64,000 bases of DNA, from contig OZ076419.1 of the NCBI GenBank assembly GCA_964187785.1, forward strand, positions 54,002,001 to 54,066,000. Reading direction: 5' to 3'. Positions 15,201-47,395 of this stretch are shown here, piece by piece. Positions within the stretch are counted from its first letter, which is position 1; the number at the start of each line of letters is the position of its first letter. This DNA is from Amphiscolops sp. MND2022 (lineage: Eukaryota). The notes under the pieces were generated by a model. The model saw nothing but the letters and a program-made list of their open reading frames with translations, did not search any database and was not told the DNA's origin. The position numbers and the translations under genes are program-made.

Positions 15201-15202
15201 AC

Positions 15203-17403: not shown

Positions 17404-17405
17404 TA

Positions 17406-20455: not shown

Positions 20456-20783
20456 TCAAAAATGCTTGTCTAGGTAACAGAACCTCCATTTGGTGTTTCT
20501 ATCAAAGAGATTGTATTTATTGGCTATTTGCATTGAAGTGAGGAGGTAATTAGGAAGCCAGCAAACAATCCACAGAAGCCAGCTCAAGAAGAAAGCCAGA
20601 GTTAAAACTCGGTTCCGTTTGGCTCTTCGTTCTTGTCGCAGAAGCCTGTATCCAAGGTTGGCATACAAGAAACAACACGCTAGTACTGGCAGAATGAAGT
20701 GAAGCGCCAGCTCGGTCCAAAATCTCGGAGGCGATCGTCTGGTCTGAGAAGCGCACATGTTAGCGAAACTCTCAAATTGCAGA
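20456..20783 (-). CDS. Class A (rhodopsin-like) GPCR, exon encoding the end of ECL2, TM5, ICL3 and TM6. TM7 is not found intact.
   Basis: NMCASQ (ECL2 Cys), LHFILPVLACCFLY (TM5 P...Y), basic ICL3 RQERRAKRNR, FFLSWLLWIVCWLPNY (CWxP). Acceptor TTTGTTTCAG at 20785-20784 (alternative CCCTAG at 20842-20841); both are phase 2. Confidence 0.75.
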
Positions 20784-20909
20784 CTGAAACAAAGAGCTTT
20801 TTCCACATCATTGATGTCATGCGAACTTATAAACAACAATCTAGGGTGAAACTAGACTTTTGGGAAATTTGAGGAAAGCGTTTTGCTGATTCAAGTAATG
20901 ATTACGGAG

Positions 20910-21205
20910 ATTTTGTACTTTTCGTTTTTCAAGAGGAGCGTTACCAAAAACGTGCTTTGAGATTTTTTGCTTAGAGTCTTGTAGCTTTACATTAAGAGGT
21001 CCTACCAACCCCAAACGTTTTTCGCCCTGAATTTCATACGGTTTCAGTCTATCTAGACAACTCGATGAGGGCAGATTGTCACTGCTTCTGGTTGCGTCTT
21101 CAGTACTGTGTGGAAGCTTCATTTTTTTCACACAATCATTGTAAGCAAAATATCTCAAAGCACGTTTTTGGTAACGCTCCTCTCGAAAAACCAAACGTAC
21201 AAAAT
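20910..21205. repeat. ~63-bp inverted repeat pair enclosing ~170 bp (MITE-like or fold-back)
   Basis: 20910-20973 ATTTTGTAC...GAGGAGCGTTACCAAAAACGTGCTTTGAGAT..TTTGCTTA is the reverse complement of 21142-21205 with ~4 mismatches. No TSD seen. Confidence 0.85.
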
Positions 21206-22327
21206 TAAAGTAGTTTCAAATTCCAAACTACTAAAAAACACAATGAAAACCATGATGCTCAGTGGTGCTTTTTGAAGACGCACACGAAAAAAGTAGGTAG
21301 CACAACACCAAAAAAACGCCACTGATGAGAACACTTTGGTCTTATTCAGCAATTTAGAATTGTTTTTAAAAATCGAGGTATCAACGAGATGCATTTAGAA
21401 CTGCAGTGGGCGTGGAAGGAACGGAGTACTACGTTTTTGGTATAACACTCATCAGTCTAACGAGACTAACGAAGGTTCAACGTTTTGAATTGTTTCGAGA
21501 AGTTTTTGCAGGTATTACTTTTTGTCAACGTTCTGCTGTGAGCGGAATTTGAAACACCAGCTTTTTGGTATTTCTTAGTGTATGACAGAGACAGCTTCTC
21601 TTTGAAGGTGTATCTCAGAACGGATGAGTTTGCAAAATGTTTTCACAATTTAACCACGTAGTGTTCGATTGAAAGTTTTTTTTTGTTCAGAGCTGAAATG
21701 CCGATGTTTGATCCACAGTGTTTGAGGATAAAGATCGCTCATTGAAACAAGATTTTTGATTTCTTTCGGGCATTCCCCATTCCGCTGAGAAACAATGGCA
21801 ACATTACAAGCGAAACGCTCCGACCATCTTGGAACAAGATATAAACTCCTGGGAGGTGCAAAAAACTAAGGCTTGCAAAGTCGCTCCACAACTTGTTTTC
21901 GAAAACACGTTAGCATAGAAACATGCACTATAATCGCTAGTTCTGTAGGTGTGCTAACTTTCGAGGTTTTGCGAGTAACGGTTTTTGAACTCGTTTTGAA
22001 AAGTGCACTTTTTTCTTGTTTTTTTTTTGGAAATCTATCGACATAGTGCCCTGCCTATTGTCCTTTGGGATTTCTTCTTCCCACTAAGTGATTTTAACAA
22101 TTTTGCGAAAAATTCCAGCAGTACCTAAGTTGTTTGTAATCCATCTGAATTTCTGATCGTGAATAAATTTCCACTCATTGTAAATTGCAAGCTTCTCCGG
22201 AAAACAGCATTTCCATTTTCTCTCGTTTAATTCTCTCAATCTTGGCACTCAAAATTGTAAGGATTCTTGAAGGTTGTATGAAGGAATTCTTCTTGAACCC
22301 CATCATGTTTCAAGATAGGTTATATCC

Positions 22328-22790
22328 GTTCGGCTCGATCTGAGTGCCGAGAAGGGTCTTCCCAGTCCACGACTCGCTTCTCGAGTGGTGCTGGAGGTTT
22401 GTCTCGTGCTGTCGACTCGGGTCGTGCTCGACTCTAATTGGTTGACCTTGACTCAATGTATAAAGGTTATGTAGCCGAATTGTTTACAATGTGTAAAGGT
22501 GTGTTCAAGGTATTAAGATAGGAAATAGCTTCGGCAAGGGGGTGCAACATAATAGCTTCATTTTTGGCAGGTGCAACAGCTCGCGGGAAAAATTTTACAA
22601 GCCCCGCAATATTTTATCCGCCCTCGCAAGATTTTTCCGACTGTGTAATTTTTTATCCGGCACCGGAATAAATCATTCGCCATAGAGGTTGAGCTAATTA
22701 CTTGAGTACAATGTGTTTGGGGACAAATCATGTTTAAATAGAGAAGAATATATATAATTTGTATAAATTTAACACACCTACTTGAAAGAA
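22328..22790 (+). repeat. Left terminal inverted repeat of the Polinton
   Basis: Reverse complement of ~45670-46136, e.g. GAGAAGGGTCTTCCCAGTCC and CATAGAGGTTGAGCTAATTACTTGAGTAC. About 17 mismatches in the outer ~119 bp by hand count. Confidence 0.88.
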
Positions 22791-22822
22791 AATATCATAT
22801 TTCGAAATAGTCTTTTATATGA

Positions 22823-25800
22823 TCAGGGAACCGTGGGGATTCCATCCTCCTCCACTATTCTCTGTGGGTGAAAGTAAGAGGGTCCCTTCTTTAACTGTTC
22901 GTGTGTTGCAATACTGTATTTAGTACGGAAACCTCTGTTAGCGCTCGTTACATTACCTTGATCAAATAGGACTTTTTGATATTCAGCCATTGGTCCATCG
23001 CTACAGTCTTCAATGATACGCTTATTCAGTCTTTTGCTACTGACTTTGTACTCGTTCGACTTTGCATCATAGCAACAATACGTTTTGCTACAAAGACACA
23101 ACATTTCAGTGCAGCTGAATTCCTCTTTGAAAAGACCTGGTTTTCTCTTGGCGTGCCTTTTGTGCTTTTCACAGCATGTGCGTGGGAAAAAATTACCACT
23201 GGAATCCGCTACAAAATTGTCATTGTTGTCTTCACTGCGGAGAAATTCTCATACTTCCTTCTTGTCTTCTTGAATACATTCATACAAGTTGCTTTCAGCT
23301 ATGGCTAGATAGAGTGACTCCGTGCCCATTTCCATTTCTCCATACACGTCGTCATTGCAGAACTCTCTAAAGAAACGGTAGTAGAGTTCAAGCATTCTCA
23401 GTGTTGCGTATTGCGGAAAACAATGATGGGCTCTATGTGCTCTACCTCAGCTTTAGCAAGTTCAACCTCGTATAAAGTGTCATTTATGCATTTCAGTCAT
23501 TTGAACATTTTGTTGTTTATTGCTGCATGGGTTTTTTCAGCGTTCAGAAGCTTTGTGACTGTGTGGCGACTACTATCCACAATCTCATAACCATAGGAAC
23601 TGTTGGCAAGCAGCTTCACCGTCTCTGCCACAACAGTTGAATTTGAATTTTCATCACCTTCTCTTCTAGCGTTCACTGCTGATTGTACAAACTTGTTGGA
23701 GCATTTCATTGGAGTAAACTCCACAAAGCGGTATATTTTTGTACAGACCAGTCCCAAATGCGAATAAAATGAAAACAGCGGAGTAATCAAAGTACTTTTC
23801 CATAGATGGAAAGTAGATATCAACATTCGACGAGGTTGAGAATTTTTCCACAATTTTGTATCCTTTTCCGCCATTTATGTAATCTCTCCTCATTTCGTCT
23901 CATTTCGCGAAATAACCGGTCGTTTCTAACTGCGCTCTACTTCTTTGTCGCTCTTTGTCCTTTTTGGACGCGTATCCTGACAGGGACAGTGGTGACCGTA
24001 GCATCTCGTTGCTTGAAAGACAGTATTGCAGTGACTACAAAAACCGTCCGTACTAAAGGATTTGTATTTCCTTTGCGTTCCGGTAGTAATGTTGCTCTCA
24101 ATTTTACAGTCGGGACGAAGCCGTTGAAAACAAAAGATGACCATATTTTGAAAGCTGCGGGTTCGGTTTTTACAAGGCTTCAATCATTGCGAGTCAGAGG
24201 CCTATTCATATCGACTGTATTACCTGATAGGCACGGGTTGACACATTGGAACCGGGTTAAGTTGACTATCATCAATGTCAACAATGATTTTGCACACATC
24301 TTGTGATTCGCGGATAAACGTCTCGTCCACTACGGCTCTGCGTTTAAAAACAATATAGGACCACCAACCATATCCTCTCTAATATTCTCCTGCAGGTCCT
24401 TGTCAGTCTCAGTGAAGGGATAGAATTCGGGATGAGTAGACTTAGGTAGACAAATGTTTGCTCAACTTGGGAGAGTACCACCCAAATTGAGCATATCAAT
24501 TCCTTTATTGTGGCAAAAGCCAATATTTTTGTGCATGACTTCAAGTGTGGGCACCACATCTTTGTTGATGTACCGGCGCAAGAAAACGTTGAAAATTGTC
24601 GTTTTTTCTTTCTCCCATATTTCAACGAGATACGCATAATTTTGTTCTCCCGTAGGTGGTGAACAAAGTATGTACAACTTTTGCATTGCAGACTCTTGTG
24701 ACAAACCAGTCTGCACTAGCTTCTCTAATCCAGATACTGCTTTTCTAAAGGATTACAATTGCGCAGTTGGCTGTAAAAGCATTTATACGGTGAAAGATGA
24801 TCAAGTGATAGTTTCTCAGCGTAGTCGAACCATTGTCAGGGGAAGAAACATTTTGTCTCCTCAGTTTTGTATGCCTTAAAAAATGAGTCAATGTTTGTTG
24901 CGCTTCCAAGAAAGTTTAAACTCTCCAATAAATGTACATCACCAAACTTGAATGACACGTACCTGTTCGCCTTTATGATCACAAAAGGTTCACGAGCATC
25001 GGCAAGAAAGACGTCTTGATCAGGGTAATATCAAATTCACCGCTGTTGAATCCAAACACTGGTAGTACATTATTTCTTACAAAAAGATCCTGCAATTCAA
25101 TCAATTCCTTCTTTTGCATATGTAGAAACTTTGTAGATACTGACTCTTTTCCCTCTGACTCTGCTTCACCGCACTCAACTTCAAGTGTAAATGTAGCTTC
25201 TGGCCTCAATCGACGCTCATTCAGCAGTTCTATTAAATGTGAGAGCTTACTCTTCATTGCAGTTTCTACCTCATGGAGACTCATTCGCATCTGAGCTTTG
25301 CTCTGAGCTGCCAAACTCTCCAATGCATCCAGAAATGATGACGCTAGATCACGAGGGTTGCAATTACAAATGGAACTGGAATTTTGTAGTAAGTTGGAGG
25401 AGATTGATACATATATCGGATCATGTTGTCCAATCCATTTTGCTGACTCTGTGTCTTTGAAGACATCTTCTCGTACAGAAATTGATTTGAAATCAAAGAG
25501 TGCAACATTTTGAAAGAGTTGCTGCTCGTCCATGTAAGGTATATTGAAGAAATCCAACTTGTCAAAAAGCGTTTCTTTTAACTGGGATACAGTTATTCCA
25601 TACACGTGTTTCGCTCTTCCGTGGCAAGTGGTTTATTGACGTTCAAGATTGCCTGGTCGATTAAAGTAACAATCACACCTCGGACAACGGAAAGCGTTAA
25701 ACAGTGCGTGGATGTTTGCTACATAGCAAATGTGACTGTTATAGCGTAACGACCTAACAGTATTGGAATGCTTCTTCTGCCCACTCCTTCTTGTCAGCTC

Positions 25801-25960
25801 ACCGAAAAGAGGTCATTCCACAATGTTAACATCGTAAAGTAAAATATTGATCCCAGTGCTTTCCTCCACAGTTGGTATATCGTCCATGCAATCACCTTGA
25901 AATGACTCTGGGTAAATTTTTTCTTTCGTTCGCAGGTGAGGGTAAACAGTTTGTTTGTCT
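22823..25960 (-). pseudogene. polB: Protein-primed family B DNA polymerase (pPolB), central and C-terminal part, fragmented
   Basis: Exo-like LFDFKSI and LPVFGFNSGEFDI; RYINKDVVPTLE; DGFCSHCNTVF; motif B KLLANSSYG; CSKTYCC; C-terminal KKGPSYFHPQRIVEEDGI. Confidence 0.9.
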
Positions 25961-27597
25961 CCTCTTCTAGCCCTTCTTTTCCGTGCAAGTGTAAGCACAA
26001 GGCTCTGAACAAGCAAAAAATGTCATTATCAGGTTGCCTTGTGTTTTGCTCAAGTGTGAGGCAGTTGACAGTTCGTACAGGTTCAGGCAGCACTGTATCT
26101 TCCCAACCCATTGGAATATATTTGAGTAGAGCTGCAAAGATTGTTACATTTGTCAGTTTAAGAAAATTCAACATGGTGTTGACTCGTTTACGGGTGCAAG
26201 TCTCAATGGCATCTGTTCCAGCAAGCAAGGTTTCTATGTGTTCCAAGTCGTCTCCGGTACTCAGAATTTTAGACTTCTCCTACAGAGTGTTATTCTCGTG
26301 TGCATAAAAATAACCACAGCTACGGTCTACGATATCTTTTAAAACAATTCCAACAGCCAGATAAATATTAGCAGCACCTTTGAGTTGTCGAAAAACAGAA
26401 TCCAGCGTTGAGTTAACTATTTCAGCACTAAAAGATTTCAATGCGAAATTGAAAACTCTTTGACGACTGCGGGCTTGGGAGCTCCATGCATCTTTGCAAT
26501 GTGGTTATTCAAGTCATTTTTGGACTTGATTGAGAAATTTGGGCATTGAAAGCAATATAATGTCCCAATTGAGCAATTCTTTTTGTGTTTTGTCAGGTTG
26601 TGTTTGGATAATAGAGTTCAAGGCAACTTTCGCATTTCGACCAAGGGCAGTCACTTTGAGCAGAGAAGTGTAGCAAGTCTCTATCTGGAAACGAGCAAAT
26701 AGAAAGGTAACAAAAATTGTAAGTATCTGAAAAAAAGCATGTAGATTTGTAACAGAAAATTGTAACAAGTTTTACTCTTACTGCAAGCAACTACATCGAA
26801 GTATTGTGAAATGAAAAATGAAATGGAAATGTTTAAAACCGGTTTCATGTAATTGGGCAACCATATACGGAAGGTGTGAGTCGCTCAACCATAAAAGGAA
26901 CATTTAACCTACCGTAAATAGATACAGCAAAGATGTACTAACATTAGAGTACACTTCCAAGTACCTGACAGTCACTTTTAATCTCTCTGAACGTTATTTG
27001 CTCAAGTGGGACACGTGTCCTTGCATGGGACGCCGCATTGTGTGAGAACATCACTCCAGGGAAATATATTCCATCAGAAAGATGCGTCTGGGAAAACGGC
27101 TCAAGTGGAAGATTTATCCGACCAGAAAAGATTAGTAGCGTAGGCAGCTGGCAGCAGCTTGTTACCCTTTCATCTTGCATTCCTTGACAATTTACAACGG
27201 TAGACGTAAACTTTGCTTTTGGATACACTTGTTTTAATTTGATACACTTGTTTCACTCTCTTTTGGCAAGTGGTTCATTGACGTCCAAGATTGCATAGTC
27301 GATCGAAGTAACAATCACACGTCGGGTAACGGAAAGCGTTAAGCAGTGCGTGGCTGTTTGCTACATAGCAAATGTGACTATTATAGCGTAACAACCTAAC
27401 AGTATTGGGATGCTTCTGTACACTCCTTCTTTCGAGTTCACTGACAAATATTGATCCCAGTAATTTCCTCCACGGTTGGTATTTCGTCCATGCGAACTCC
27501 TCGAAATGACACTGGCTCAATTCCGTCTTTCCTTTGCAGGTAGAGGTTAAACGGTTTGTCTGTCTCCTCTTCTAGCCCTTCTTTTCCGTGCAAGTGT
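25956..27597. repeat. Circularly permuted copy of 32452-34066
   Basis: 25956-27184 matches 32830-34066 and 27184-27597 matches 32452-32866 (~96%). Novel junction CTTGCATTCC|TTGACAATTT at ~27184. Confidence 0.9.
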
Positions 27598-28400
27598 GAG
27601 CACAAGGCTCTGAACAAGCATAAACTTTCATTATATGGTTGCCTTGTGTTTTGCTCAAAAGTGATGCAGTTGACAGTTCGATTGTTTAGTAGAGATTCAG
27701 GCACTACTGCATCTTCACAACCCATTTGAATATCTTTGAGTAGCGTTCCAAAATTGTCCCATTTGTCAGTTTGAAAAGTTTCCACTTTGTGTTGACTAGT
27801 TCACTGGTACAAGTCTCAATGACATCTTTTCCAGCAAGCAATGTTTTAATGTGTTCCAAGTCGTCTCCAATACTCAGAATTTTCGTCTGTTTTTCTCGTG
27901 TGCAAAAAATTACCGACAGCTAGCGTCTTCGATGATGTTTTGAAACACTTAAAATCAAATCCAACTGCCAGATTACTTTCAGCAGCATATCCGAGTTGTT
28001 GTAACACATAATCCAGCTTTCAGTTAGTTTTTTCAGCACCAAGAGAATTCATTGCGAACTTGAAAATTCTCTGACTCCCTTTTACCAATTGCGAATCAAC
28101 AAAGAAGTGCTGGCATTCAAGTTGTTCTTCTTTGAGGTTGTCATCGTCGATAACATCGAGAAGGGGAGAAGAATCAGCCTTTGTTTTAAAAGTGTGTCCA
28201 TGCAATCGACTTTCAGGTTAACGTATTGCATATAAGCCAGTAAATTTGTCTGCGCCAATCATACAATTTTGGGCAACTGCGGGCTTGGGAGCTCCATGCT
28301 TTTTTGCAATGTGGTAATTCAAGTCACTTTGGGACTTGGTTGAGAAATTGGGGCATTGAGAGCAATATTATTTCCAAACTGAACATTTTTTTTGTTTTGC
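27580..28400 (-). pseudogene. polB: pPolB N-terminal region (resident continuation of 25600-25960)
   Basis: LLKDIQMGCEDAVVPESLLNNRTVNCITFEQNTRQPYNESLCLFRAL. Homologous to 25960-26500 and 32840-33400 but retains ~215 bp that those two copies lack. Confidence 0.75.
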
Positions 28401-30442
28401 CAGGTTTTGTTTGGATGCTAGAGTTTCACAATTGTCGCAGGCAATCTTTGCATTTCGATCAAGGGTAGGCACTTTGAGCAAAAAAGTGTAAAAGTCTCTA
28501 TCTGGAAGCAAACAAAGAGATTTGTAACAAAACATTGTAGGTTTCTGAAAGCTAGCAAGTAGATTTGTAACAGAAAATTGTAACAAGTTTTAGTCTGACA
28601 GCAAACAAATAAATTGACGAAATGTGAAAGGAAAAACGAACCGAATATCCCTAAAACTGATTTCATGTAATTGGTCAACCACATACGGAAGGTGTGAGTC
28701 ACTGAACCATAAACGGAATAGTTAACCTACCATATAAAGAAAAAGTAATTACGCACTAGCGTTAGAGTACCTTTTCAAGTACCTGACAGTCATTTTTAAT
28801 GTCTCGGAACGTTATTTGATCAATAATTGAGTTACTTGGAGCGCCGCATTGTCTGTGAAAACCACTTAAGTGGAACAAGTTTCCTTCAAGGGTCGCCATA
28901 TTCTCTGAGGAAATCAATCACGTGGATCACATTCTCTCAAAAAAACGCCTAAACGTCTGTAAAAACGTCTCAAGTGGAGCAATTATCCGACCATAAAAGA
29001 TTAGTAGCGTGGGTAGCTGACAGCTGGATACCCTTTCATAATTGGAGCAGTTCATGTCTGTTAAATAGCAAGTTCCATCTCTATTTTTGCGGTATTCAAT
29101 TAAAGAAGACGTTCCGGAACAACCTTCGGACGAAGCTGACGTTGACTCGTACTTTTATTGCAACATATTGGACGTTACAAAGACGAAAAATTGGATCGTA
29201 CGAGTCAGCAAGACATCCAAAAAAAGTTATTTGCAATCAAAATCTTTAAATTTTGCCACTTGAAAACTCAACAACGTTTCTTTCTTGACAAAAAACTTTC
29301 CATCACGAAAAAAGAGCTCACGTCGGTGCGAAACAGACTGCGTCACTTTTTGAAACAGTACGACCACGCACGAAAGGCAACTCAATATCCTACCAAAACC
29401 GTTACACTGATTGGCTACACGCTGTGGAAGGACGAACTCGTCTCCAACTGTTATCTAGATATTGAAGAACACACTGATCGTCAACCAAGAACGGAAGCAT
29501 TGAAAGGAACTACGACGTCTCATGGAGACAAAGTCAACCAATAAACGCTCAAAAGAACCAAAAACAAAACGAAGAAGTCCCTAGAGGTGAATGACCGACT
29601 CAGTTTGCTATTGGCAGTTCAATATCACTACAAAGTCAATTTTCAAGCAACTAGAAATCATTTCGTTTCAAAACTAAACTACAATCGAGACACACTACAA
29701 CAAAAACCATGTTCTTCACAGTCTCCAACTACGGAACCCAACCAGCAAGGCACGAGGGAGATGGAAGATGAGGTACGAGCAAGCGTTGGTGATCACGATG
29801 TAATCAGTGACGATGTTCAGTTCCACTGAGAGAATCGGAACTAGAGGTGGACGCAGTGTATTGACCATGCATTGGTACTCTCTTGCCTCCGTCACTATTT
29901 GAAAACTTTCTTTTTGCTGTTAGCGCAGACTAACCCATAGAAATTGACGATTAACAAGATAAAGAGAACGAGTAACCCACGACACCCGAGTAGCAGGGAC
30001 CGATCCAACCGCCACCGCTGCATAGATCTCTGAGTTGTCCATTTGGGACACGACTGGAAATTATACCAAACTCTGTGTATCGTAGCTTGTTTGAATAATT
30101 GTATTTGTTTTGCGTAATCAAATAAATTCTCAATATTCACAATTTCTCTTTGGGCTCGGTCGTATTGTGTGAGACCCTAGCAAAACTAAAAGTTACCTTA
30201 AATATTGCCATGACTGTTAGTTTGTTTATTTCTCAAGTAAAGACTACAGAAAAACTGGGACAAAATCTCAATCCCTGCGTCAAAGATATCAAGGACTAGT
30301 TTATGAAAGGGGAGAATGTTTTAGCAATTTTGAAGAAAACATTATAGGTTGTCTCTGTCCACCACTCTAGGGGTGAACGCTGTGATATATGCTTGTGGTG
30401 GTATTAGGAATGTTAGTCTTGTTCAAAGCGTTTCTCAATTGA

Positions 30443-30857
30443 AATCTGACGTGATGTAAAATTTTTACTTTATAATCTGACGTGACGTAAAAATTTTACT
30501 TTGAATTCTGACACGATGTAAAAGTTTTACTTTAAAATCTGACACGTTACAAAAATTTCACTTCCAAATCTGACACGTTCTAAATATTTTACTTTGGAAT
30601 GTGACAAGGTGAAAATTTTTTTCTTTCAAACCTGTCTTTTTAATAATGTATCGCAAAAAATTGGTTATTTTTTTTGTGTAAAACGGGAAGAAACTTGTCT
30701 TTTTACAAATAGAAACGCATCTCGATCCTGTATTTTTATTGTTTTTTGTATCTCGTTTAATATCTGACAGTTGTAAACATTTGGCAAAAAATTTGACACA
30801 TTTTGTAACATCTGACAGTTGTAAACATTTGGCAAAAAATTTGACACTTTTTGTAAA
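30443..30857 (+). repeat. Non-coding TGAC-core arrays: six 31-bp units (30443-~30625) and a 48-bp tandem pair (30762-30857)
   Basis: Unit consensus AATCTGAC(G/A)(T/C)G...AAAA..TT(T)ACTTT, with starts at 30443, 30474, 30505, 30536, 30567 and 30598. A paralogous array lies at ~37208-37330 and 37420-37500. Confidence 0.9.
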
Positions 30858-31481
30858 ATTTTTCAAAAAATCACACGAATTATAATTTTTTCTGCAAAAG
30901 TGTGCATTTTACCTTCAGTCAATCCCTATCGATCTCTTGTGGCGTTGATTGAATCGTACAGCTCGTTCAACCTTCTCAAATACTTTTCCATTTTTGGTAA
31001 CAATCTCTCCACCAAAAAGATACGTGAACAATGTGGAAATACAGTCGACTAACTGAAATGTAAAACAAAACCTGGACATTTTTCGCTTCAAGTCATTGTT
31101 ATCATTCTCTGCAATGAGCAAAATGTTATATTTACAATTGGGAACACTGCATTGAGAATTATTGTGTTTAGCCACGGAATAGTCTTTGCTGAAAAGATAC
31201 TTTTCATATGTCTTTGCACAAATGTGTACACTCTTTCTAGATTATACAGACTAGAAACTTGGTACAACTTGCATCATCATGCAGACATTTGAACGTTGTG
31301 TTAAACAAAATTAATCTGTTGATTGTTAGCCTAAAAAGAATACTCACGAGACTTCCATGAAAAGAAATGCAATCAATACCTGAAAAGGAAAGGTTATTTG
31401 AATGACAGCACAAAAATTACTTTCAACGAAATGTCTTTCTTCTATGGAAAACGAGGCGTAAACATTTCCAAAATTGGAACA

Positions 31482-35400: not shown

Positions 35401-38400
35401 GAGATGGATGCAGTGTATCGACCAAGGATTGATACTCCCTTCCCTCCGTCACTGTTTGAAAACTTTCCTTTTGCTGGTAGCGGAGACTACCCCAAAGAAA
35501 CTGACTATGAACAAAATAAAGAAAATGAGTAACCCACAACACCCGAGTCGCAGAAGCCATCCAACCGCCACCGCTGCATAGATCTCTGAGTTGTCCATTT
35601 GGGACACGACTGGAAATTATACCAAACTCTGTGTATCGTAGCTTGTTTGAATAATTCTATTTGTTTTGCGTAATCAAATAAATTCTCAATATTCACAATT
35701 TCTCTTTGGGCTCGGTCGTATTGTGTGAGACCCTAGCAAAACTAAAAGTTACCTTAAATATTGCCATGACTGTTAGTTTGTTTATTTCTCAAGTAAAGAC
35801 TACAGAAAAACTGGGACAAAATCTCAATCCCTGCGTCAAAGATATCAAGGACTAGTTTATGAAAGGGGAGAATGTTTTAGCAATTTTGAAGAAAACATTT
35901 TAGGTTGTCTCTGTCCGCCACTCTAGGGGTGAACGCTGTGATAAATTCTTGTGGTGATAAATTCTTCTTCATCCAAAAAAAGTTATTTGCAATCAAAATC
36001 TTTAAATTTTGCCACTTGAAAACTCAACAACGTTTCTTTCTTGACAAAAAACTTTCCATCACGAAAAAAGAGCTCACGTCGGTGCGAAACAGACTGCGTC
36101 ACTTTTTGAAACAGTACGACCACGCACGAAAGGCAACTCAATATCCTACCAAAACCGTTACACTGATTGGCTACACGCTGTGGAAGGACGAACTCGTCTC
36201 CAACTGTTATCTAGATATTGAAGAACACACTGATCGTCAACCAAGAACGGACGCATTGAAAGGAACTACGACGTCTCATGGAGACAAAGTCAACCAATAA
36301 ACGCTCAAAAGAACCAAAAACAAAACGAAGAAGTCCCTAGAGGTGAATGACCGACTCAGTTTGCTATTGGCAGTTCAATATCACTACAAAGTCATTTTTC
36401 AAGCAACTAGAAATCATTTCGTTTCAAAACTAAACTACAATCGAGACACACTACAACAAAAACCATGTTCTTCACAGTCTCCAACTACGGAACCCAACCA
36501 GCAAGGCACGAGGGAGATGGAAGATGAGGTACGAGCAAGCGTTGGTGATCACGATGTAATCAGTGACGATGTTCAGTTCCACTGAGAGAATCGGAACTAG
36601 AGGTGGACGCAGTGTATTGACCATGCATTGGTACTCTCTTGCCTCCGTCACTATTTGAAAACTTTCTTTTTGCTGTTAGCGCAGACTAACCCATAGAAAT
36701 TGACGATTAACAAGATAAAGAGAACGAGTAACCCACGACACCCGAGTAGCAGGGACCGATCCAACCGCCACCGCTGCATAGATCTCTGAGTTGTCCATGT
36801 GGGACTCGTTTGGAAAATATACCAAACTCTGTGTATCGTAGCTTGTTTGAATAATTGTATTTGTTTTGCGTAATCAATTAATTTTTCATTATTCACAATT
36901 TCTTTTTCAGTTCTGTCATAGTGTGTCGTATGTGTGAGACTGTAGCAAACTTAGTAGTTGCTTTGAGTAGTGTCATGACTGTTAGCGTGTTTATTTATTA
37001 GGTAAAGACTACAGAAAAAATTGGAGGAAATCTCAATCCCTGCGTCAGAGAGTACCAGAACAATCGTATGAACGAGAGAGACTGTTTTTGCTATGTTGAA
37101 GAAAATATTATAGGTTGTCTCTGTCCACCACTTAAGGGGGAGAAACTATGTGAGAAATTCTTGTTGTTGTATTAGGAACGTTAGTCTTTTCAAAATTTTT
37201 CGCAATTGAAATCTGACGTGACATAAGAATATTACTTCAATGTCTGACACAGTGTAAACTTTTTACTTCAAAACTTGACAGGTAGCGAAAATTTTACTAT
37301 AAAATCTGACGAGAATAAAAAAATTTTCTTCCGAACCCGTCTTTTCAACTCAAACGGAGTAAAATGGGTAAAAACATGTCTTTTTACAAGTATAAACGCA
37401 TTCGAAATCTGTTTTTTTTTTATTCTGACGTTTTGTAAAAATTTGACAAAAAAATGACACGTTGTAAAAGCTTGGCAAAAAATTATGACACGTCGAAAAA
37501 TTTTTCCACAAAAAATGAGAGAACTTAAAGCTTTATTTGCAAAAGTGTGCTGGTTACTGTCAGTCATGTATGTGCAAGTGTTCCGACATTCGTCATTTAG
37601 TATATGGTACATTGTTTTTCACTATTGGAGCATTCTTGTTGCTCGTACTAGCTGTCGCTGCAATCGCGGCTCTCTTTGTTCTTATGATTTGAATTCCTAT
37701 CGATCTCTACAAATCTCTTTTTGCTGGAGACACCGTGGTTACTTTACAAAGATTTTTTTAAAGATACTAAATTACTATCATAAAAACCGTAGTTATGTAA
37801 AAAACATCCTACAATTTTTACCAACTGTACTTCAATGTTAGTCTTTGCTAACTTGTTCAATCCTGTCTGCAAAAACTGATCCTTTCCTGTGTGTTGAAAT
37901 TGTCTTTTGCAAAGGACTCAGTAAAAGTCTTTTGTATTTTTCACGCAACAACCTCTTTTTCGCTATACTCGGCATCTTTCTAACTGTGTTGTGACGTTGA
38001 TTGAATCGTATAGCCTGTTCAACCTTGTCAAATCCTTTTCCATTTTTGGTATCAATCTTTCCAACAAAGCGATACTTTAAAAATGAGTGATTGCAGTCGA
38101 CTAAATGACATGTACAACAAAAGTGTGCAACTTTTGCATCAAGTCGTTATTATCCTTCTCTGCAATTAGCAAAATGTGATAATTTCAATTGGAAACACTA
38201 CACATGGAACCATCGTGTTTAGCAACACAAAAGTCTTGACTGACAAAATACTTTTCCTTTGTGTTTGCACAAGTGTGTGTATACACACTTTCTAGAGTAT
38301 ACAGAGTTGAAACTAGAAACAACGTGCATCATCATGGCAGCCATCTGAATGTTGTGTTTTTGGTAAACAAAATGAATGTGAAAAGATGGAATTGTTACCC

Positions 38401-39350
38401 TAAAAGGAATAATCACATGACTTCCATAAAAGGAATTGCAATCATTACATTGGAAAGATGACGTAATAGTTTTGAATGACAGCACAAATATTACCTTAAG
38501 AGAAATGTCCTCCTTTTTTGGAAAACGAGGCGTAAGCATTTCCAAATATGGAATACTCACGTGACCATATCAGTACATAAGCAAACGCAGTTTCATTTCC
38601 AACCATGATTTCATTTCGAATCGCTCAGTTATTTTTGGCATCATGCTTGCAATGAGTTGCCTAAATAAAAGTGGCCTGTTCCACAATCCAACAGCGACTC
38701 AGACGATTAATACGATCAACCCTACTTCACCCAGAACTCACTCCTGACAAGAACCAGCAGCGAAATGAAACTGCTTTGCACCGATTTTGTGGACTTTGGC
38801 AAGCACCAAGCAATAGTTGGACAATTTTCGTGGTCCAAAAATTAAAATAGTTACTTCGAGGTGCTTTTCAAAGTCTTCAAAAAGGATATTGCCAACGAAT
38901 TCAAGCATTAGCAATGTGTTTCGCTGGGGCAATTTGACTTCAAGCAGTTCTTGAGGTTGAGAAATCAGTTGATTGTTGCTGAAGACAACTTTACGAAAGA
39001 GGAAAGTTTGCCTTGTTTCAATGTTGCAGAGGGGACAGTTTGTCTATGCCAACAATGAAATTGACGAAATTCTTTAATTACTATATGTAATGAATTCGGT
39101 TTGTGATTGTATACCTTTTTTTTACAACTTTGGTTTTTTCAATCAACCTAGTGAGATTGAGTTGGAGAAAGTAGAAACGTGTTTTTTAATTTAAAAACAA
39201 AAATGGGACTTTATCACGTTTGTCCTTGTAAGATCAAAGTCTTCTCAGAAAAACTACTCTATCAGTAGCTGAATTGCAACCCTTGCCAGAGCTCGAACAA
39301 GGCGAGGACGAAAGGTCTTAATTTAAATGGACAGTTTACAGTGGTAAACG
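32500..39350. repeat. Diverged second unit (~75-85%) homologous to 25600-32500: pPolB N-terminus plus small Polinton ORFs
   Basis: Co-linear homology, e.g. 29080-29210 vs 34290-34430, 31440-31900 vs 38500-39000, 32250-32480 vs 39130-39350. The unit junction is marked by a 12-bp duplication GATACACTTGTT (32490-32501, 32509-32520). Confidence 0.85.
35559..36798. repeat. Circularly permuted copy of 29214-30400
   Basis: 35559-35957 matches 30003-30400 and 35970-36798 matches 29214-30042 (~99%). The junction carries a duplicated GTGATAAATTCTT. Confidence 0.9.
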
Positions 39351-39870: not shown

Positions 39871-39939
39871 TGGACTTTTCTATTGTCTGTTTTTGTAATA
39901 GTTTCATCCCTCCATTTTCAATTTAGTGGTTTTTCAGTC

Positions 39940-40430: not shown

Positions 40431-40797
40431 AAACGTTTTGTTCATTTTACATTTTTTTCTTAAAAAGATATTCATTTATAAAGATACACTCAGGCTAGCA
40501 AACTAGATGACTGAGACTAACCTCAACTTGAAAAAATTGTTTTTGACGGAAATAACAGTGAACGAAAATCGTGGAGGTGCATGGGACAATCCTGCTCTAG
40601 ATACTTAATTTTGTTCTTGTCCCAACTTTTCATCGTTTTTTTGTTTATAGCTTTGGGTAGCTTTCGGAGAATTAGTTCGGCAACAAGCTGTGAAGAATAT
40701 ACAGTACGGGTTGGAACTTTGGGGTAGCGCAGCAGGACTTATTGTTTCAACGCCGAGGCTATGAACTTGTTGATATCCCGCTAAAAAGCGCGTCTTT

Positions 40798-41440
40798 ATG
40801 TCCATGGTTGGACCCAGTCAATCTGGTGAAACTCAGTTGATTTACGAGTGGTTAACCAATGGAACTTTTCAACCCAACTTTGACGAGATTTATTTCTTTT
40901 ACCAATATTATCAATCAGTATACGACAAGATGCAAAAAGATATTGATTGTATCGAGTTTGTAAATAAACAAAAAAGTATCCTCTCACTTTTNNNNNNNNN
41001 NNNNNNNNNNNNNNNNNNNNNNNNNNNNNNNNNNNNNNNNNNNNNNNNNNNNNNNNNNNNNNNNNNNNNNNNNNNNNNNNNNNNNNNNNNNNNNNNNNNN
41101 NNNNNNNNNNNNNNNNNNNNNNNNNNNNNNNNNNNNNNNNNNNNNNNNNNNNNNNNNNNNNNNNNNNNNNNNNNNNNNNNNNNNNNNNNNNATATATATA
41201 TATATCAATCACAACTTGTTTCACAAGAGCAATCTCGGACACGACATTGAGCTACAAACTCCACACATAGCATTGTTCAAGTCGCCTCGGGATGTTATGC
41301 AAACATATGCTTTTAGTATTCATTTAGGACTAGGTTCCTCACTGGTGGGTTGTTACGGAGATGCAACGTGTGTTCTGTTTGGTAATTTGCTCAGCGATTT
41401 ATCGCCACGAACGGATGATAGATTACGTTACTGACAAATA
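40798..41440 (+). pseudogene. FtsK/HerA-family (A32-like) packaging ATPase, split by the scaffold gap
   Basis: Degenerate Walker A GPSQSGET (K to E), FQPNFDEIYFFYQYYQ. After the gap: IYINHNLFHK, HIALFKSPRD, DLSPRTDDRLRY. Confidence 0.88.
40992..41191. other. Assembly gap (200 N)
   Basis: A run of exactly 200 N, followed by (AT)n. Confidence 1.
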
Positions 41441-42149
41441 GTGGAAAGACTACATCAAGGTTTTACGTACCAAAAAGTTTGAAGCAATTGACATACTTGG
41501 ACGATGAGCACACAAAATCTCTCTATTCTCCACGCGTTCTTTTTCCCGCAAGTGCAAAAGTCAATTTCTCCAATTGTATCCGAGATATTTTTCGGTTTCT
41601 AAGCGAGTGCATAGTAAGCGTACTCCAAGGAAACTTGCACAGCGTAAAATGACATCACGTTATTAAATATAAACGGGAGTTGCACTTAATCTCTTTAAAG
41701 CGGACTACATGGAAGCAAAAACTAGATCTATTGACTCCAGAGAGTTTGTCCCAGTACCATCTTCACATCTCAACAAGCTAAACACAACATCGTGTTTGCT
41801 GTTAAAAGTGGATCTACCTAAATATCAACGTCAACAAACTCCTACGTCCCAAGTTGATTCGCTGAAAAAAAGAGTAACAAAAAGTTGTTTGCCAATGCAA
41901 GTTCATTCATTCAAACTTTTTCAGCATCCTCATTCGTAAAATAGTCCCGCTCTAACACTATCGTGCCATATGGTACAGATACCGGAGTTTTGTTGCAAGA
42001 TTTTGCACAACAATTGCGTAGAAAGGACGCTGACAAACCCTACATATACTTTATTTTACTGGACGCAACCGACAATTCTCTTAGTATAGTGCACAATCAG
42101 AATGCCAAAGCAAAAGAGAGAAGAAACTGGATATCATTCTGAGCAACAA

Positions 42150-42975
42150 AAGCTTCAAAGAATATATACACGAGGTACAGCAGCATATGGCTCAGTGCTA
42201 AATCTGGCAAATGCCACCAAGCTACCCTTTTCCAAGGTTAGACAGTTTTTACATTCAAAAGATTCTTATACAAAATTTACACTTGCAACACGCAAATTTA
42301 GATTTATGAGAGCATCGGCTAGATACAAGAATGAACTTTGGTGCAAGGACTCAGCATATGCATATGTTGATAAACTAGCTAACGATAACAGAGGAACAAC
42401 GTACTTGCTTGTTCGCCAGGAAGTGTTCGACAAAACAAAAGATGTGAAGCGATTGAAAACAAAGGACTCTAAGCAGGCATTTAGAGCCTTTGAGCAAAGG
42501 AGTTCAAAGCGGAAAAGATCTCAAAGTTTTGGGTTGACAAGGGAAAAGGAAATGCTGGTGAATTTAAAAAGAGACGAAATACAAATTCACTCAACATTGA
42601 GTGAACCTCAAGCAGCAACCAACGAGAGAGCTATTCGTTCATTGAAAAAGTATTATATCGCTACAATGAAGACTGTGGATACAAGTATAATCACAAATTG
42701 CCTCAACTTGTTACTACGCTGGATACGAGAAGGAATAGATCAATAGATATGAAATTCAGCAATTCTAACTTTATGGCTGCTGTGCTTTACAGTAAGTCAA
42801 TCAGATACTTAACAAACCAATAATCAAACTTGTACACCGCGTCCGAATTTCCAAGCAAGATTGACCGTTCAGAAAAAGATCAAACCGCAATATACAAACG
42901 AATTTTTTAAAAATGTTGCTAATACTACACGCAAACCACCCACTTATAATGTACATGATGAACAAGGCGAAGGGA
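42150..42975 (+). pseudogene. int: Retroviral-like DDE integrase of the Polinton, frameshifted
   Basis: AAYGSVLNL, NELWCKDSAY (D), WVDKG-like region (D) out of frame, ERAIRSLK (E), and KPPTYNVHDEQGE near the C-terminus. Confidence 0.87.
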
Positions 42976-42979
42976 AATT

Positions 42980-43590
42980 TTCATTTTATGACGCACTTTA
43001 CTCCAAGACGACAGCTGCTTAATACTTAGAACCTGGATTGTATTCGTCCGTAACCGACATTGTGGAAGCTATGACTTTGCTAGAAGAGGAACAATTACAC
43101 CAAAAATTGCTTTACTGTTAAAGTATCTTCTCGCACAGAAAAAATTGTACTTTCACTCAGTAGTGACAACTCTAGCCTCGTCATAGTCACTAGAGACTCG
43201 GGACATATCTTTGGTGGCGATGTTGGAGATGACAAGAGATTTGATTCTAGGTAAGGGACCTCATGGACCACAGTTTGCGTACGATAATGTTCGTATTCAT
43301 TCGTTAATGCTTTTCACTGATATTGTGGAGTACAACCTTGTTGGAGACACAAAAGCATCCTTTTACGTTGCTTTCCTTTCATTTCAAAGCTGAAATCCGG
43401 AGACATAATCACTACTGTACAATGCATGAATTACCAAACTTTCAGTATCATTCAATTTTGTCGCTAATTGAAATATTCCTTTCATAGTATACATATTGAT
43501 CTGAGGGATACCTCGAGTGAAAAGGTTCACTTGCATTGGTCTCTGTTGGCATCACATGTCTTGTGCTACTGTTTAGAAGAATTTCTGACA
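42980..43590 (+). pseudogene. Minor capsid (penton-like) protein remnants
   Basis: LEPGLYSSVTDIVEAM, IHSLMLFTDIVEYNLVGDTKA, FHSIHIDLRDTS. Confidence 0.75.
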
Positions 43591-43619
43591 TTCATTACTA
43601 ACAAAAAACACTGTGCGAA

Positions 43620-43935
43620 ATGGTTGCGTCAAGAGAACTTGAACTACCGTATTTCAGAGGAGTGACAAGACAACGCGCAAGAGGATTGGAGCTCTTGCGA
43701 ACTTTATTGGGAGAATCACAGATCCTTTTGTAAGAAAAATTATCGCTCCAGCAGCACGAAGAGTTGGAGCTGACTTGTTAGAGTATCCTGTAGCTGAAAT
43801 GGCTACAGTATCCTGTAGCTGAAAAGTAATTAGTGGAAGGAAATAATGAGAAATCGGTTTGAAGAAGTGTTGGCAAAAAGACGTTGAGAAAACAACTAGG
43901 TGGCAGTAGCAAGAGAACACGCAATTTCATTTTTA
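43620..43935 (+). pseudogene. Small basic, amphipathic virion-core-like protein, frameshifted
   Basis: MVASRELELPYFRGVTRQRARG, then in a shifted frame GALANFIGRITDPFVRKIIAPAARRVGADLLEY. It lies between the minor and major capsid genes. Confidence 0.6.
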
Positions 43936-44018
43936 CAAAACCCACCATCAAAAACAATGGCTCGCGCAAATACATTTTCACAAACAGTTCACGCTAAACA
44001 TGAAGGCACAAAACAATT

Positions 44019-45243
44019 TTCGGTATCAACATTTTGTGGGCGTTTCTGGTAGTATTAGCGGTAATTTCCCAGTTGTCGATGACGCACTTTCCTCGCATGA
44101 ACAACAAATTTATCCTACAACGTCACTGGATGACAACAGTTTCGAGTTTGAAACTCAAACAAATCGCAACAAGTTCACTGATTTGCGTCAAACGTATTTG
44201 TCTTCGGTACTCAATTTGGTGAAACATCGTGGATTTGATTCGTCAGAAAAAAGTCAAAAAGGAACTCAATGAGACAGAAGATAGAGAGTCTGATGCCGAC
44301 AACAACAATTTTCCCATAATTACCCATCTGAACAACATTTCGCACTCCATTTTCTCCAATGTGGAAGTCAAGTTTAAAGAAACAATCAGCAACTTTACAA
44401 TTCAATTGGACTTTATGGTCATAAATCTTACAAGTCCAACAATTTTAAACAAGTCATCTCTGAGTATAAGGGAGTGCTACATTGTGAAGGCTATGACTTG
44501 GAATCAAACACAGAAGACGCTATGGATACACCGTTGGAGTATCCGTTCATTACAATGGTAAATTGGGGGTTGATTTTTCACTACTTCAGATCTCTTGTAT
44601 CCAAACATGAAAGTTGAAATCCGACTGAATAAAGCACGAGCTAATTTTCACATGATTGGTAGTGACAATCCTAACGTTAGCCTTGTATTTGTGGATTGTT
44701 CGCTTTATACTCGCCGTATTACACTCAGAGACGATTATCACAAAAAGCGAACAAATATGCTAGTATACAGTCCAGTAGAATACAACTGCTTGTAAACATG
44801 TGCCAAGACTTTTATCATTCCCGTCCCGGCAGAATCAATTTATACAAGAAAATTATTTCAACAATGCACCCATCCGATGTATCGCCATAGCAATGAACAC
44901 AAATTCTGCCTTCACGGGTTCGTTCACTGAAAATCCATACTGTATCAACAGTTTGGACTGAGACACATTAGAATACTACGCAGCGGTCAATCTGTTGTTG
45001 GCAATACTTACAATAATTGTCATCTCTATGTTACAACAATACGAGCATTGAATGTTGTTCATGACGATATACCGTCAGTCCTCATTGACAAATTGAAGGA
45101 TCATTATGTGCTCGTGTTTGATTTGACATCAATGCAAGATGAACCTTGCAGCACTCGAAAGTGTAACAGAAGTCATTATATTGGATGAACGACTTTCGTC
45201 GGTTGGAGTCGACAAGTTTGGCGTTGTTTGCAAAAATATTTAA
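44019..45243 (+). pseudogene. Double-jelly-roll major capsid protein remnants
   Basis: PVVDDALSSHEQQIYPTTSLDDNSFEFE..TNRNKFTDLRQTYL, HSIFSNVEV, LYPNMKVEIRL..ARANF, IAIAMNTNSAFTGSFTENP, DHYVLVFDLTSMQD. The stop TAA is followed after 1 nt by the protease ATG. Confidence 0.88.
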
Positions 45244-45244
45244 T

Positions 45245-45634
45245 ATGGATAACATTGCATTGCAACAGATTATTGATCGTCTTCCTCTCCTTTTGTGTCG
45301 GTACCTCGGTTCATTTCCTTCTCATCGTGTCCCTATGGTTCTAAATGATACGTTTGCTATCGTCAATACCGAACCAAGCTACTTGTTTGGCGAGCACTGT
45401 GTTTTGATTGCCAATTTTAAACAGCAGTTGTATTTTGCAGACTCTTTCGGTGGATCATGCAATTTTCTCAAGCAAAACTATCAGAAGATGATTCCAGTAA
45501 AGTTGCAGTCACATCTCAGCGTGTGCGGATTCTTTGCAATATATTCAGCTTTTCATCTTTTCAAGTTCCAGCCAGAGCAACTCACAGGAGTTCACAATGT
45601 AAATGTGCTCTCTTTTGATAATAATTATATATAA
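45245..45634 (+). CDS. Adenain-like (peptidase C5) cysteine protease, open reading frame of 129 aa
   Basis: MDNIALQQII...YLGSFP...GEH(C)...YFADSFG...LQS...VCGFF. The catalytic His, Asp, Gln and Cys are all present. Confidence 0.88.
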   Translation: MDNIALQQIIDRLPLLLCRYLGSFPSHRVPMVLNDTFAIVNTEPSYLFGEHCVLIANFKQQLYFADSFGGSCNFLKQNYQKMIPVKLQSHLSVCGFFAIYSAFHLFKFQPEQLTGVHNVNVLSFDNNYI

Positions 45635-45669
45635 CTCTAATGCTAGTTGTAAAGTGCAGTTTATACATG

Positions 45670-46136
45670 TGATTGTTTTACATTTATACATAATATTTCA
45701 ATTTTTTAACATGATTTTTTCTCTCAACACAGAGTACTCAAGTAATTAGCTCAACCTCTATGGCGGATAAATTATTCCGGTGGCGGTTAAAATGTTCCGC
45801 AGGCGGATAAAATATTGTGAGGGCGAATAATATACTGCGGGGCGTGTGAAATATTTCACGCGTGCAGTTGCACCCACTAAAAACGAAAATTTACCCAAAG
45901 TCTCACAGTGCTCATCTTAATGCATTGCCGAAGCCATTCCCTATCTTTATACATTGAACACACCTTTATACATTGGAAACAAGTGGGCTACAGAACCTTT
46001 ATACATTGAGTCAAATCGTCAGCCAATCAGAGTCGAGTGCGACTCGAGCCTGCAGCACGAGACAAACCACCAGCACTCCTCGAGAAGCGAGTCATGGACT
46101 GGGAAGACCCTTCTCGGCTCTCGGATTGATCCTAAC
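45670..46136 (-). repeat. Right terminal inverted repeat of the Polinton
   Basis: Inverted counterpart of 22328-22790. It contains five 20-bp-period GGCGGATAAAAT-like units (45761-45860) and three CTTTATACATTG copies (45945-46008). Confidence 0.88.
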
Positions 46137-46745
46137 ATGTGGGTCTTCCACCTCCCCCACATGTCTGCTCATCATCTTACCACTTATGATATTTGATAGC
46201 ATTACAAAATGCAGTCATGGTGCTGATAGTTTTTTTGATCACGATCAAATTTTTTCGTGAAGGTATACCAACATAGATATCTTTGCTGAATATTTTGACG
46301 GTTGGTGACCAATGTTAGTTTTTTCAATCGCATTTTTCGGAATTCTATATCGGACGTGGCTTTCAGTTTATATATCTATGAATGATCTGAAAACGATTGA
46401 AAACCTATGAATCCATTGCAGCTCAGTGAAACAATGGAACGATTCAATTCAATTTAATACTACAGCGTCAACTAACATGTAGAGCCTCACTTTGTCAGTT
46501 CCGGAGCTTCAACGTTGCTTTCACTTCACCACCAAAAAATTTGTCTTTGCCCAAGCAATGCGATTTTTTCTGTTTTTATGAAACAAAAACGTTCATCACA
46601 TCTGGCAATAAGACCTTCTTTCTTCAAAAATGTCTTGCATTCTGGAGAAATCTTTTACGAAAGTGGAAGAAAGCTTTGTTTGAATAAAAAGAAACACTTT
46701 CGATAGCTCTCAATATCTTACTAGAAAATTTTCAAGGAAACTCAC

Positions 46746-47395
46746 TCAGTTTCTGTGTCTGCGGAATAATAGTTGTTGTAGCGCACTTCCACGACCCCCA
46801 GAGTCATTGAGATTGACGTGATTGTAATCAAACCAGCAGCCAGTACTTTATGGTGATTCGGCGTTAGCTTTAGAGATGGTTGGCAAACTAGCATATATCT
46901 CACAAAAGCCGTGGCTGTCAAGCAAAACCCAGTACTGTATTCATTTAGAAAAGTTCTTAGCTCCAGAAGAACACAACCTAGTAACCCACCAATCCGGTGG
47001 AAGATTTCAAACTCCATGATAGGAACATACGGAGAACCACGGTAACCATCGCTGGCAAAATATTTCGCAATTGCATCGTATTTTTCCATTAGTTTCCACT
47101 CATAGACCACATTCGCAATTCCCGGGCCGCAGATGTCGATGAAACCTTGCATTATGACAGGAAAAAATTTCCAAGATCGGAAGTCTTTATGTCTCAGGAG
47201 AAACGCAAGAAGCAGCATGTTAAAAACTACAGATTGAATACTGAAAAAAGTGCTTAGACCGAGTTTCATTTTCATCATCTTAATGAAGAACCCATCCACG
47301 TGAAGTCCGTTTTTATTTTCCATGACATAGAACCATTCATCCTGCAGATGGAGGTTAGCAACTGGGGTAACCTCCGAGCTGGTATTTATACCCAT
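46746..47395 (-). CDS. Class A (rhodopsin-like) GPCR, exon encoding the N-terminus and TM1-TM4
   Basis: ATG at 47395; N-glycosylation site NTS; TM1 ...SVVFNMLLL; TM2 MQGFIDI; TM3 GC...TAFVRYMLVCQP (DRY-like); TM4 VLAAGLITITSISM. It ends at a consensus donor GA|GTGAGT (46745). About 217 open codons. Confidence 0.85.

What the first reader, a model, noticed from the sequence alone, without database searches (positions are those of the whole stretch)
20456..47395. One GPCR gene split by a ~26-kb intron that contains a whole Polinton
Seen: a TM1-4 exon (47395-46746) ends GA|GTGAGT. 26 kb away on the same strand, a TM5-6 exon begins after TTTGTTTCAG (20784) with one leftover base. Both sides are phase 2, so splicing gives ...YSADTETD-LQFESFANMCASQTRRSPPRFWTELALHFILP..., a normal-length ECL2 with the Cys that would pair with the TM3 Cys. 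Established: these are class A GPCR motifs (N1.50, D2.50, xRY, TM5 Pro, CWxP). Inference: they form one gene hosting a 24-kb viral-type element in its intron. Both exons are fully open while neighbouring TEs are riddled with stops, suggesting selection. TM7 appears only as a frameshifted trace (...YST.NAL, ~20400-20440), so the gene may be truncated or have a further exon.
Basis: partly seen in the sequence, partly recalled or inferred. Interest (0 to 1): 0.75.

Follow-up and report, generated by a model that had tools for sequence, protein, structure and literature searches.

The report
Fossil Polinton inside old GPCR intron
Two intact halves of a receptor (GPCR) gene flank a 24-kb decayed virus-like transposon (Polinton) across an assembly gap; they are likely one gene whose older intron was inflated to about 26 kb and is probably still spliced out, which is a large but ordinary case of a transposon sitting in an intron.

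Summary
The core observation holds. A 650-nt exon (TM1-4) and a 300-nt exon (TM5-6) join in phase without a stop. Of 23 long relatives of the first half, 22 also carry the second half, so both halves belong to one receptor family.

Four corrections:
(1) The intron is older than the Polinton. All 18 sampled members of this clade stop near the same loop, while intronless relatives lie outside it.
(2) The Polinton is a fossil: longest open stretch 218 codons, terminal repeats 17% diverged, no end motif or target duplication, about 13 kb of internal duplications.
(3) The exons sit on different contigs in both contig sets, so the link is a scaffold join. It is probably right, because one ATPase gene runs in order across the gap.
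(4) The 'TM7 trace' scores as background. TM7 probably lies on a third exon outside the window.

Neutral decay would rarely leave both exons open (0.05-2.4%), but allele polymorphism is as high as in dead transposon frames. No RNA was available. There is precedent in C. elegans eri-6/7. The better lead is that distant relatives carry an eighth helix and a lectin-like tail.

The parts
46746..47395 (-). GPCR exon A: N-terminus, TM1-TM4 and start of ECL2; ends at phase-2 donor GA|GTGAGT
   Evidence: 6 paralogues at 68-80% identity stop resembling it at the same codon
20784..46745 (-). inferred intron 1, 25,962 nt, GT...TTTCAG; about 2.15 kb without the Polinton (609 + 1544 nt of flank)
   Evidence: splicing inferred, not observed
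20484..20783 (-). GPCR exon B: ECL2 Cys, TM5, ICL3, TM6, ECL3; probably ends at a phase-2 AG|GT donor
   Evidence: paralogue P0013 (81%) stops matching at the same codon
20478..20483 (-). probable weak donor (GTTCTG) of a second intron; the TM7 exon is not in the window
   Evidence: inference
22328..22820 (.). left terminal inverted repeat of the Polinton; outer end eroded
   Evidence: 365 matches, 76 mismatches, 6 gaps against the right repeat
22823..26279 (-). decayed protein-primed DNA polymerase B; at least 4 frame switches in 2 kb and a stop inside a motif
   Evidence: Pfam DNA_pol_B_2 E 0.031 on one piece; motif order from recalled motifs
25600..39025 (.). internal duplications (75-91% overall, some 300-nt stretches 100% identical), including three copies of the segment upstream of the polymerase core
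40780..41669 (+). decayed A32-type packaging ATPase spanning the N gap; residues 1-53 left, 103-262 right of a near-intact copy
   Evidence: Pox_A32 on relatives, best E 4.8e-7
40992..41191 (.). 200-N scaffold gap at a contig boundary; the right edge starts with (AT)6
42102..42900 (+). probable decayed retroviral-type integrase
   Evidence: recalled motifs only; no Pfam integrase hit
42950..45150 (+). probable decayed minor and major capsid protein genes; boundaries approximate
   Evidence: recalled motifs only, spread over several frames; no library hit
45167..45634 (+). adenain-like cysteine protease, open for 155 codons
   Evidence: Atlas feature match 0.96 to a Peptidase_C5 cluster; no Pfam or PDB hit
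45629..46136 (.). right terminal inverted repeat

Best explanation
The two open exons are likely parts of one class A GPCR gene whose pre-existing ECL2 intron probably received a Polinton long ago, and the spliceosome would remove the whole 26-kb intron, fossil included. Shown: the exons, the in-phase junction, their membership of one family, and the decayed element between them. Inferred: the intron was gained at the base of an 18-member clade of an otherwise intronless family, the family then expanded into a paralogue cluster, and a Polinton inserted about 0.6 kb behind the donor of this copy. The element then decayed neutrally (about 5-10% per site) and duplicated internally, while selection kept both exons open. 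TM7 and the tail would lie on a third exon more than 20 kb further on, beyond LTR retroelements and outside the window.
For: One family: 22 of 23 relatives of exon A of 320 aa or more also match exon B, at E 1e-9 or better in a 107-protein set; P0040 carries both in order. No second A-type or B-type exon lies in the window. Old intron: 6 of 6 paralogues lose similarity at the same codon, and these plus 11 more ORFs that end near ECL2 form one clade (100/99) with the long intronless proteins outside it. Join: ATPase residues 1-53 and 103-262 lie in order on either side of the gap; two unrelated copies would abut like this about 0.3-0.6% of the time. The repeats face each other, and paralogues occur on contigs of both lengths (P0002 at 311,064; P0006 and P0013 at 161,322). 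Both contig sets carry the element. Past selection: both exons stay open in 0.05-2.4% of neutral simulations that include frameshifts (2.6-16% with substitutions only). Positions conserved in distant relatives are mostly invariant among the paralogues (37 of 46 against 45 of 124, p 3e-7).
Against: No read or contig spans the junction; both contig sets break between 37,841 and 42,102, so the second set is no independent check. TM7 is absent from the window, and the second donor (GTTCTG) is weak. Allele differences in exon A of five paralogues (17 of 1047 residues) are not lower than in five dead transposon frames (9 of 670, p 0.69), and 2 of the 4 differences in this gene hit positions invariant among paralogues. 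The intron holds 8 GTRAGT sites, 15 TTTCAG sites and 17 AATAAA sites on the transcribed strand, which could divert splicing or end transcripts early. Dating by terminal repeats assumes that both come from one insertion.
Confidence: 0.6

Rival explanations
1. It is one gene, but recently disabled. It tolerated the Polinton for a long time, then lost TM7 or its expression, perhaps when young LTR elements inserted behind exon B, and the exons have not yet had time to break.
For: No TM7 in 20 kb downstream. A 98%-identical 2.4-kb duplication starts about 700 nt behind exon B. Allele polymorphism is at the neutral level and touches conserved positions.
Against: Paralogue P0013 ends at the same codon, which fits a shared splice site rather than a private truncation. 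All five allele pairs keep the exon open. High polymorphism also fits diversifying selection on a sensory or immune receptor (inference). The neutral baseline is biased low because only frames that stayed intact were found.
Confidence: 0.25
2. The scaffold join is wrong or hides a large collapsed segment, so exon A and exon B belong to different paralogues of the cluster, each beside part of a Polinton.
For: The exons lie on different contigs in both contig sets. The ATPase family has many similar copies (14 hits at 72-89%). Paralogues lie on both contigs, and 17% divergence between the repeats could mean two copies.
Against: Only 49 ATPase codons are missing at the gap, in the right order and orientation. 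An (AT)n edge offers a recalled, ordinary reason for a break. A wrong join would have to bring two complementary orphan exons together by chance.
Confidence: 0.1
3. The insertion uncoupled the halves: transcripts mostly stop or splice inside the Polinton, giving a 4-TM product, and exon B is reached rarely or by trans-splicing, as at C. elegans eri-6/7.
For: Precedent: Polinton remnants of about 5 kb lower downstream eri-7 expression (bioRxiv 10.1101/2024.01.15.575659, passage and section 11). There are many cryptic sites in the intron.
Against: Both exons are on one strand in the normal order, with no direct repeats flanking them. Exon B is open and 81% identical to its paralogue.
Confidence: 0.05

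Closest known systems
Polinton insertion in C. elegans eri-6/7 (Zhang, Felix, Andersen; bioRxiv 10.1101/2024.01.15.575659; abstract, sections on direct repeats, multiple copies and history, and two passages seen)
   Same: A Polinton inserted between exons of a host gene, with remnants lying in an intron.
   Different: There the remnant is about 5 kb with no full element kept, it is polymorphic and tied to inversions and trans-splicing, and expression was measured. Here a 24-kb element with both repeats is in both contig sets, there is no inversion, and there are no RNA data.
Degraded Mavericks/Polintons of animals (Barreat and Katzourakis 2021, PMC8097293; passages and the architecture section seen)
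   Same: Terminal repeats of about 500 nt (their range 46-1,447), size near the top of their 12.7-24.6 kb range, and the block integrase, minor capsid, major capsid, protease in their order. 96% of their loci are eroded, like this one.
   Different: Here the ATPase lies on the integrase strand and the polymerase points outwards, unlike the inward-facing vertebrate modules. There is no end motif or 6-bp duplication, and about 13 kb of internal duplication.
Rhodopsin-like (class A) GPCRs, Pfam PF00001; nearest solved structures are peptide and chemokine receptors (neurotensin receptor 1, E 1.8e-7 for the family profile)
   Same: TM1 Asn, TM2 Asp, xRY, TM3 and ECL2 Cys, TM5 Pro, CWxP.
   Different: An unnamed, divergent, lineage-expanded family with no known ligand. 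Its TM7 motif is YSHLNP. Many intronless relatives continue into an eighth helix and a lectin-like domain.

Membership tests
Class A GPCR | 7tm_1 similarity and TM1-6 motifs | tested here: met
   Pfam E 0.0019 and 2e-5, both under the curated cut-off; relatives reach E 7e-15 and 5 of 18 pass the cut-off; PDB profile hits are class A receptors
Class A GPCR | seventh helix present in the gene | tested here: inconclusive
   not in the window; sequence beyond the window was not available
Class A GPCR | spliced transcript, G-protein coupling, ligand | not testable with these tools
   no run was listed
Polinton/Maverick | terminal inverted repeats | tested here: met
   about 500 nt, 17% mismatches
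Polinton/Maverick | protein-primed polymerase B | tested here: met
   Pfam DNA_pol_B_2 E 0.031 on one fragment (weak) plus recalled motifs in the expected order; decayed
Polinton/Maverick | A32-type packaging ATPase | tested here: met
   87% identical over 53 residues to P0129; relatives hit Pox_A32
Polinton/Maverick | adenain-type protease | tested here: met
   Atlas 0.96 to a Peptidase_C5 cluster, 206 of 256 features shared; no Pfam or PDB hit
Polinton/Maverick | retroviral-type integrase and two capsid proteins | tested here: inconclusive
   recalled motifs only; library searches were blank
Intact Polinton (Barreat and Katzourakis definition) | open core ORFs, (AG)3 or (AGT)2 ends, 6-bp target-site duplication | tested here: not met
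   longest open stretch 218 codons; no end motif and no convincing duplication

The most novel reading that the evidence does not exclude
This gene is a living, intron-split member of an undescribed family of eight-helix receptors that fuse a class A GPCR to an extracellular C-type-lectin-like domain at the C-terminus (a GPCR joined to a type II lectin receptor). It would be spliced across two transposon-filled introns of more than 20 kb, one holding a whole Polinton. The lectin-tailed architecture is seen in 9 distant relatives; that this gene has it is untested.
Probability: 0.2. Interest if true: 0.65.

Novelty: new member of a known kind. Interest (0 to 1): 0.33.

Why it matters
As a Polinton-in-intron case it shows that a gene can probably tolerate a tenfold intron expansion by a virus-like element for a long time. 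It is also a caution for annotation: ORF callers list such genes as 217-aa fragments. That is modest, since transposons in introns are routine and a Polinton precedent exists. The more useful by-product is the receptor family itself: an expanded, unnamed class A family in which one clade gained an intron and many members carry an extra helix and a lectin-like tail. If that tail is real, it would couple sugar or microbe recognition directly to G-protein signalling.

Tried and rejected
No whole genome was held. No sequencing run was listed for exon A, so no RNA holder was listed and no reads were laid; this is no evidence either way.
The TM7 trace at 20400-20440 was rejected as background. A family HMM found no TM7 or tail in any frame of the window, and a scan of acceptors below 20483 gave 3 hydrophobic frames, none TM7-like by eye.
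The alternative acceptor 20840 is open but scores lower, 264.1 against 272.6 bits.
That the Polinton created the intron was rejected by the clade-wide intron position.
An empty allele was not seen: the second contig set has Polinton frames on both sides.
That the breaks in the Polinton genes are small introns, as earlier notes of this scan report for other Polintons, is unlikely: the ATPase shifts frame against a near-intact copy without inserted sequence, and a stop sits inside a polymerase motif. I did not test this for every break.
Exact look-ups found 3 of 10 and 3 of 10 frames; the exon-B frame was not in the collection.
No related loci were found in viral contigs (5 scans), metagenome contigs or phages. 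No tRNA or Rfam hits.
The host was not determined. Two acoel genome papers (PMC6451197, PMC9911081; passages only) were checked on a recalled hunch about Gypsy- and Maverick-rich genomes, and nothing ties the window to them.
Paper searches for Polinton + intron + GPCR and for GPCR + C-terminal lectin or eighth helix listed no description of this locus or architecture; only open-licence papers are covered and supplements were not read.
Full report
THE OBSERVATION. The minus strand holds a 650-nt frame (47395-46746) that ends GA|GTGAGT and a second frame that starts after ...CTCTTTGTTTCAG at 20783. Joined inside a script, they give 950 nt without a stop; the intron is 25,962 nt. Each half hits Pfam 7tm_1 below the curated cut-off (E 0.0019 and 2e-5).

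ONE FAMILY. A full HMMER search with exon A gave 95 proteins. Of 23 stored proteins of 320 aa or more, 22 also match exon B; the exception, P0022, matches weakly. P0040 carries A-like residues 55-218 and B-like residues 259-341 in one chain. The family profile's best solved relatives are class A peptide and chemokine receptors. No other A-type or B-type exon lies in the window.

THE INTRON IS OLDER THAN THE POLINTON. Six close paralogues (68-80% identical) stop resembling exon A at the same codon. In a tree of 35 N-terminal halves, chosen from the hits that cover most of exon A, these, exon A itself and 11 further ORFs that end near ECL2 form one clade (100/99). The long intronless proteins lie outside it, as does one short ORF, P0031 (midpoint root). 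The simplest reading is one intron gain at the base of that clade. Without the element, the intron would be about 2.15 kb (609 + 1544 nt). That the paralogues lack the Polinton is a prediction; I could not fetch their DNA.

THE POLINTON IS A FOSSIL. The terminal inverted repeats span 22328-22820 and 45629-46136, with 365 matches, 76 mismatches and 6 gaps over the core. There is no (AG)3 or (AGT)2 end and no convincing target-site duplication, which Barreat and Katzourakis (PMC8097293, passages and architecture section) require of intact elements; 96% of their loci are eroded. Tool-supported genes are the polymerase (weak Pfam hit), the A32 ATPase and the adenain-like protease (Atlas 0.96). The integrase and capsid genes rest on recalled motifs. 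The longest open stretch is 218 codons, and the polymerase changes frame at least four times in 2 kb. About 13 kb (25.6-39.0 kb) consists largely of internal duplications at 75-91% identity. 'Whole' is true of the layout only.

THE GAP. The 200 N at 40992-41191 mark a contig boundary. Frames at 8881, 12302, 23806 and 37485 lie on a 161,322-bp contig; frames at 42102, 44000 and exon A lie on a 311,064-bp contig (3 of 10 look-ups found in each of the last two calls). Their roughly 98%-identical counterparts, which I take to be the other haplotype, lie on contigs of 122,707 and 232,518 bp. Both sets therefore break between 37,841 and 42,102, neither proves the join, and no empty allele is seen. 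The join is still probably right. The ATPase has residues 1-53 left of the gap and 103-262 right of it, in order, which two unrelated copies would give about 0.3-0.6% of the time. The right edge begins with an AT repeat, a recalled cause of assembly breaks. Paralogues sit on contigs of both lengths, so a gene cluster appears to span the gap.

TM7. The family's TM7 reads LxYSHLNP...KPF. Paralogue P0013 stops matching exon B at KWR, exactly where the window has AG|GT at 20484/20483. A second phase-2 intron is therefore likely, with TM7 more than 20 kb away beyond LTR retroelements, or lost.

SELECTION. At decay rates taken from the terminal repeats or lowered to fit the ATPase, the two exons stay open in 0.05-2.4% of simulations with frameshifts (0 of 5000 at the highest rate) and 2.6-16% with substitutions alone. 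Paralogue changes avoid family-conserved positions (p 3e-7). Against this, differences between contig sets in exon A of five paralogues (17 of 1047 residues) equal those in five dead transposon frames (9 of 670; p 0.69), and 2 of the 4 in this gene hit positions invariant among paralogues. This fits recent relaxation or diversifying selection. Without DNA for the alleles I cannot tell which.

MECHANISM. The most likely history (0.6) is intron gain, then family expansion, then Polinton insertion into this copy's intron, then neutral decay of the element while ordinary cis-splicing removes it. The steps from insertion onward are inferred. The rivals are a recently disabled gene (0.25), a wrong or collapsed join (0.1), and uncoupled halves as at eri-6/7 (0.05).

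COMPARISON AND NOVELTY. A Polinton between the exons of a host gene is published for C. elegans eri-6/7, where remnants of about 5 kb lower downstream expression (bioRxiv 10.1101/2024.01.15.575659; abstract, three sections and two passages seen). Searches for a Polinton in a GPCR intron listed no such case (open-licence papers only). This is a larger example of a known kind.

A SIDE LEAD. Of 16 long relatives examined, 12 have a further hydrophobic helix after TM7 (three could not be scored by the pattern used and one has none), and 9 have a Cys-rich tail motif. Three weak tests agree on a C-type-lectin-like domain: Atlas 0.93 to clusters with 40% Lectin_C members, Pfam Lectin_C E 0.007 in 1 of 6 tails, and mannose-binding protein as top PDB hit at E about 0.5. 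The fold prediction did not finish. Three paper searches listed no such architecture. Whether the window's gene has this tail is unknown.

VERDICT. Interest 0.33; new member of a known kind.

Noticed in passing
proteins P0018, P0025, P0028, P0038, P0039, P0040, P0054, P0094, P0102 (relatives of window 46746-47395): Intronless class A receptors that continue after TM7 into an eighth hydrophobic helix and a Cys-rich, C-type-lectin-like domain, predicted to be extracellular. Three weak tests agree; no paper was found.
   Followed up: partly
window 46746-47395 and paralogues P0002-P0012: At least seven paralogues (68-80% identical). At least two lie on contigs of the same lengths as those of this window, so a receptor gene cluster probably spans the scaffold gap. 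Allele-level amino-acid differences are as frequent as in dead transposon frames.
   Followed up: partly
window 20910-21205: A 296-nt MITE-like element with 64-nt inverted arms (94%) lies 126 nt upstream of the exon B acceptor.
   Followed up: no
window 50763-61852: Ty3/gypsy retroelement with 2.2-kb LTRs (86-88% identical, TG...CA ends) and gag, protease and RNase H hits, about 3.4 kb upstream of the GPCR start codon.
   Followed up: partly
window 10000-20059: Decayed element, probably BEL/Pao-type (DUF5641 E 0.023), with a 2.4-kb segment duplicated at 98% (13730-16105 / 17403-19780). The second copy is flanked by 282-nt direct repeats that hold a tRNA-like stretch seen by eye, possibly a SINE.
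   Followed up: no
window 1-7500: A second decayed LTR retroelement on the plus strand (RVT_1 E 0.0017).
   Followed up: no
window 25600-39025: Nested internal duplications of the Polinton with a period of about 6.8 kb. Some 300-nt stretches are 100% identical, so part may be very recent or an assembly artefact.
   Followed up: partly
protein P0121 against window 40130-40387 and 40780-41326: Another copy of this Polinton family fuses the ATPase front to sequence that lies upstream of the ATPase in the window, so copies of the family differ by rearrangement.
   Followed up: no
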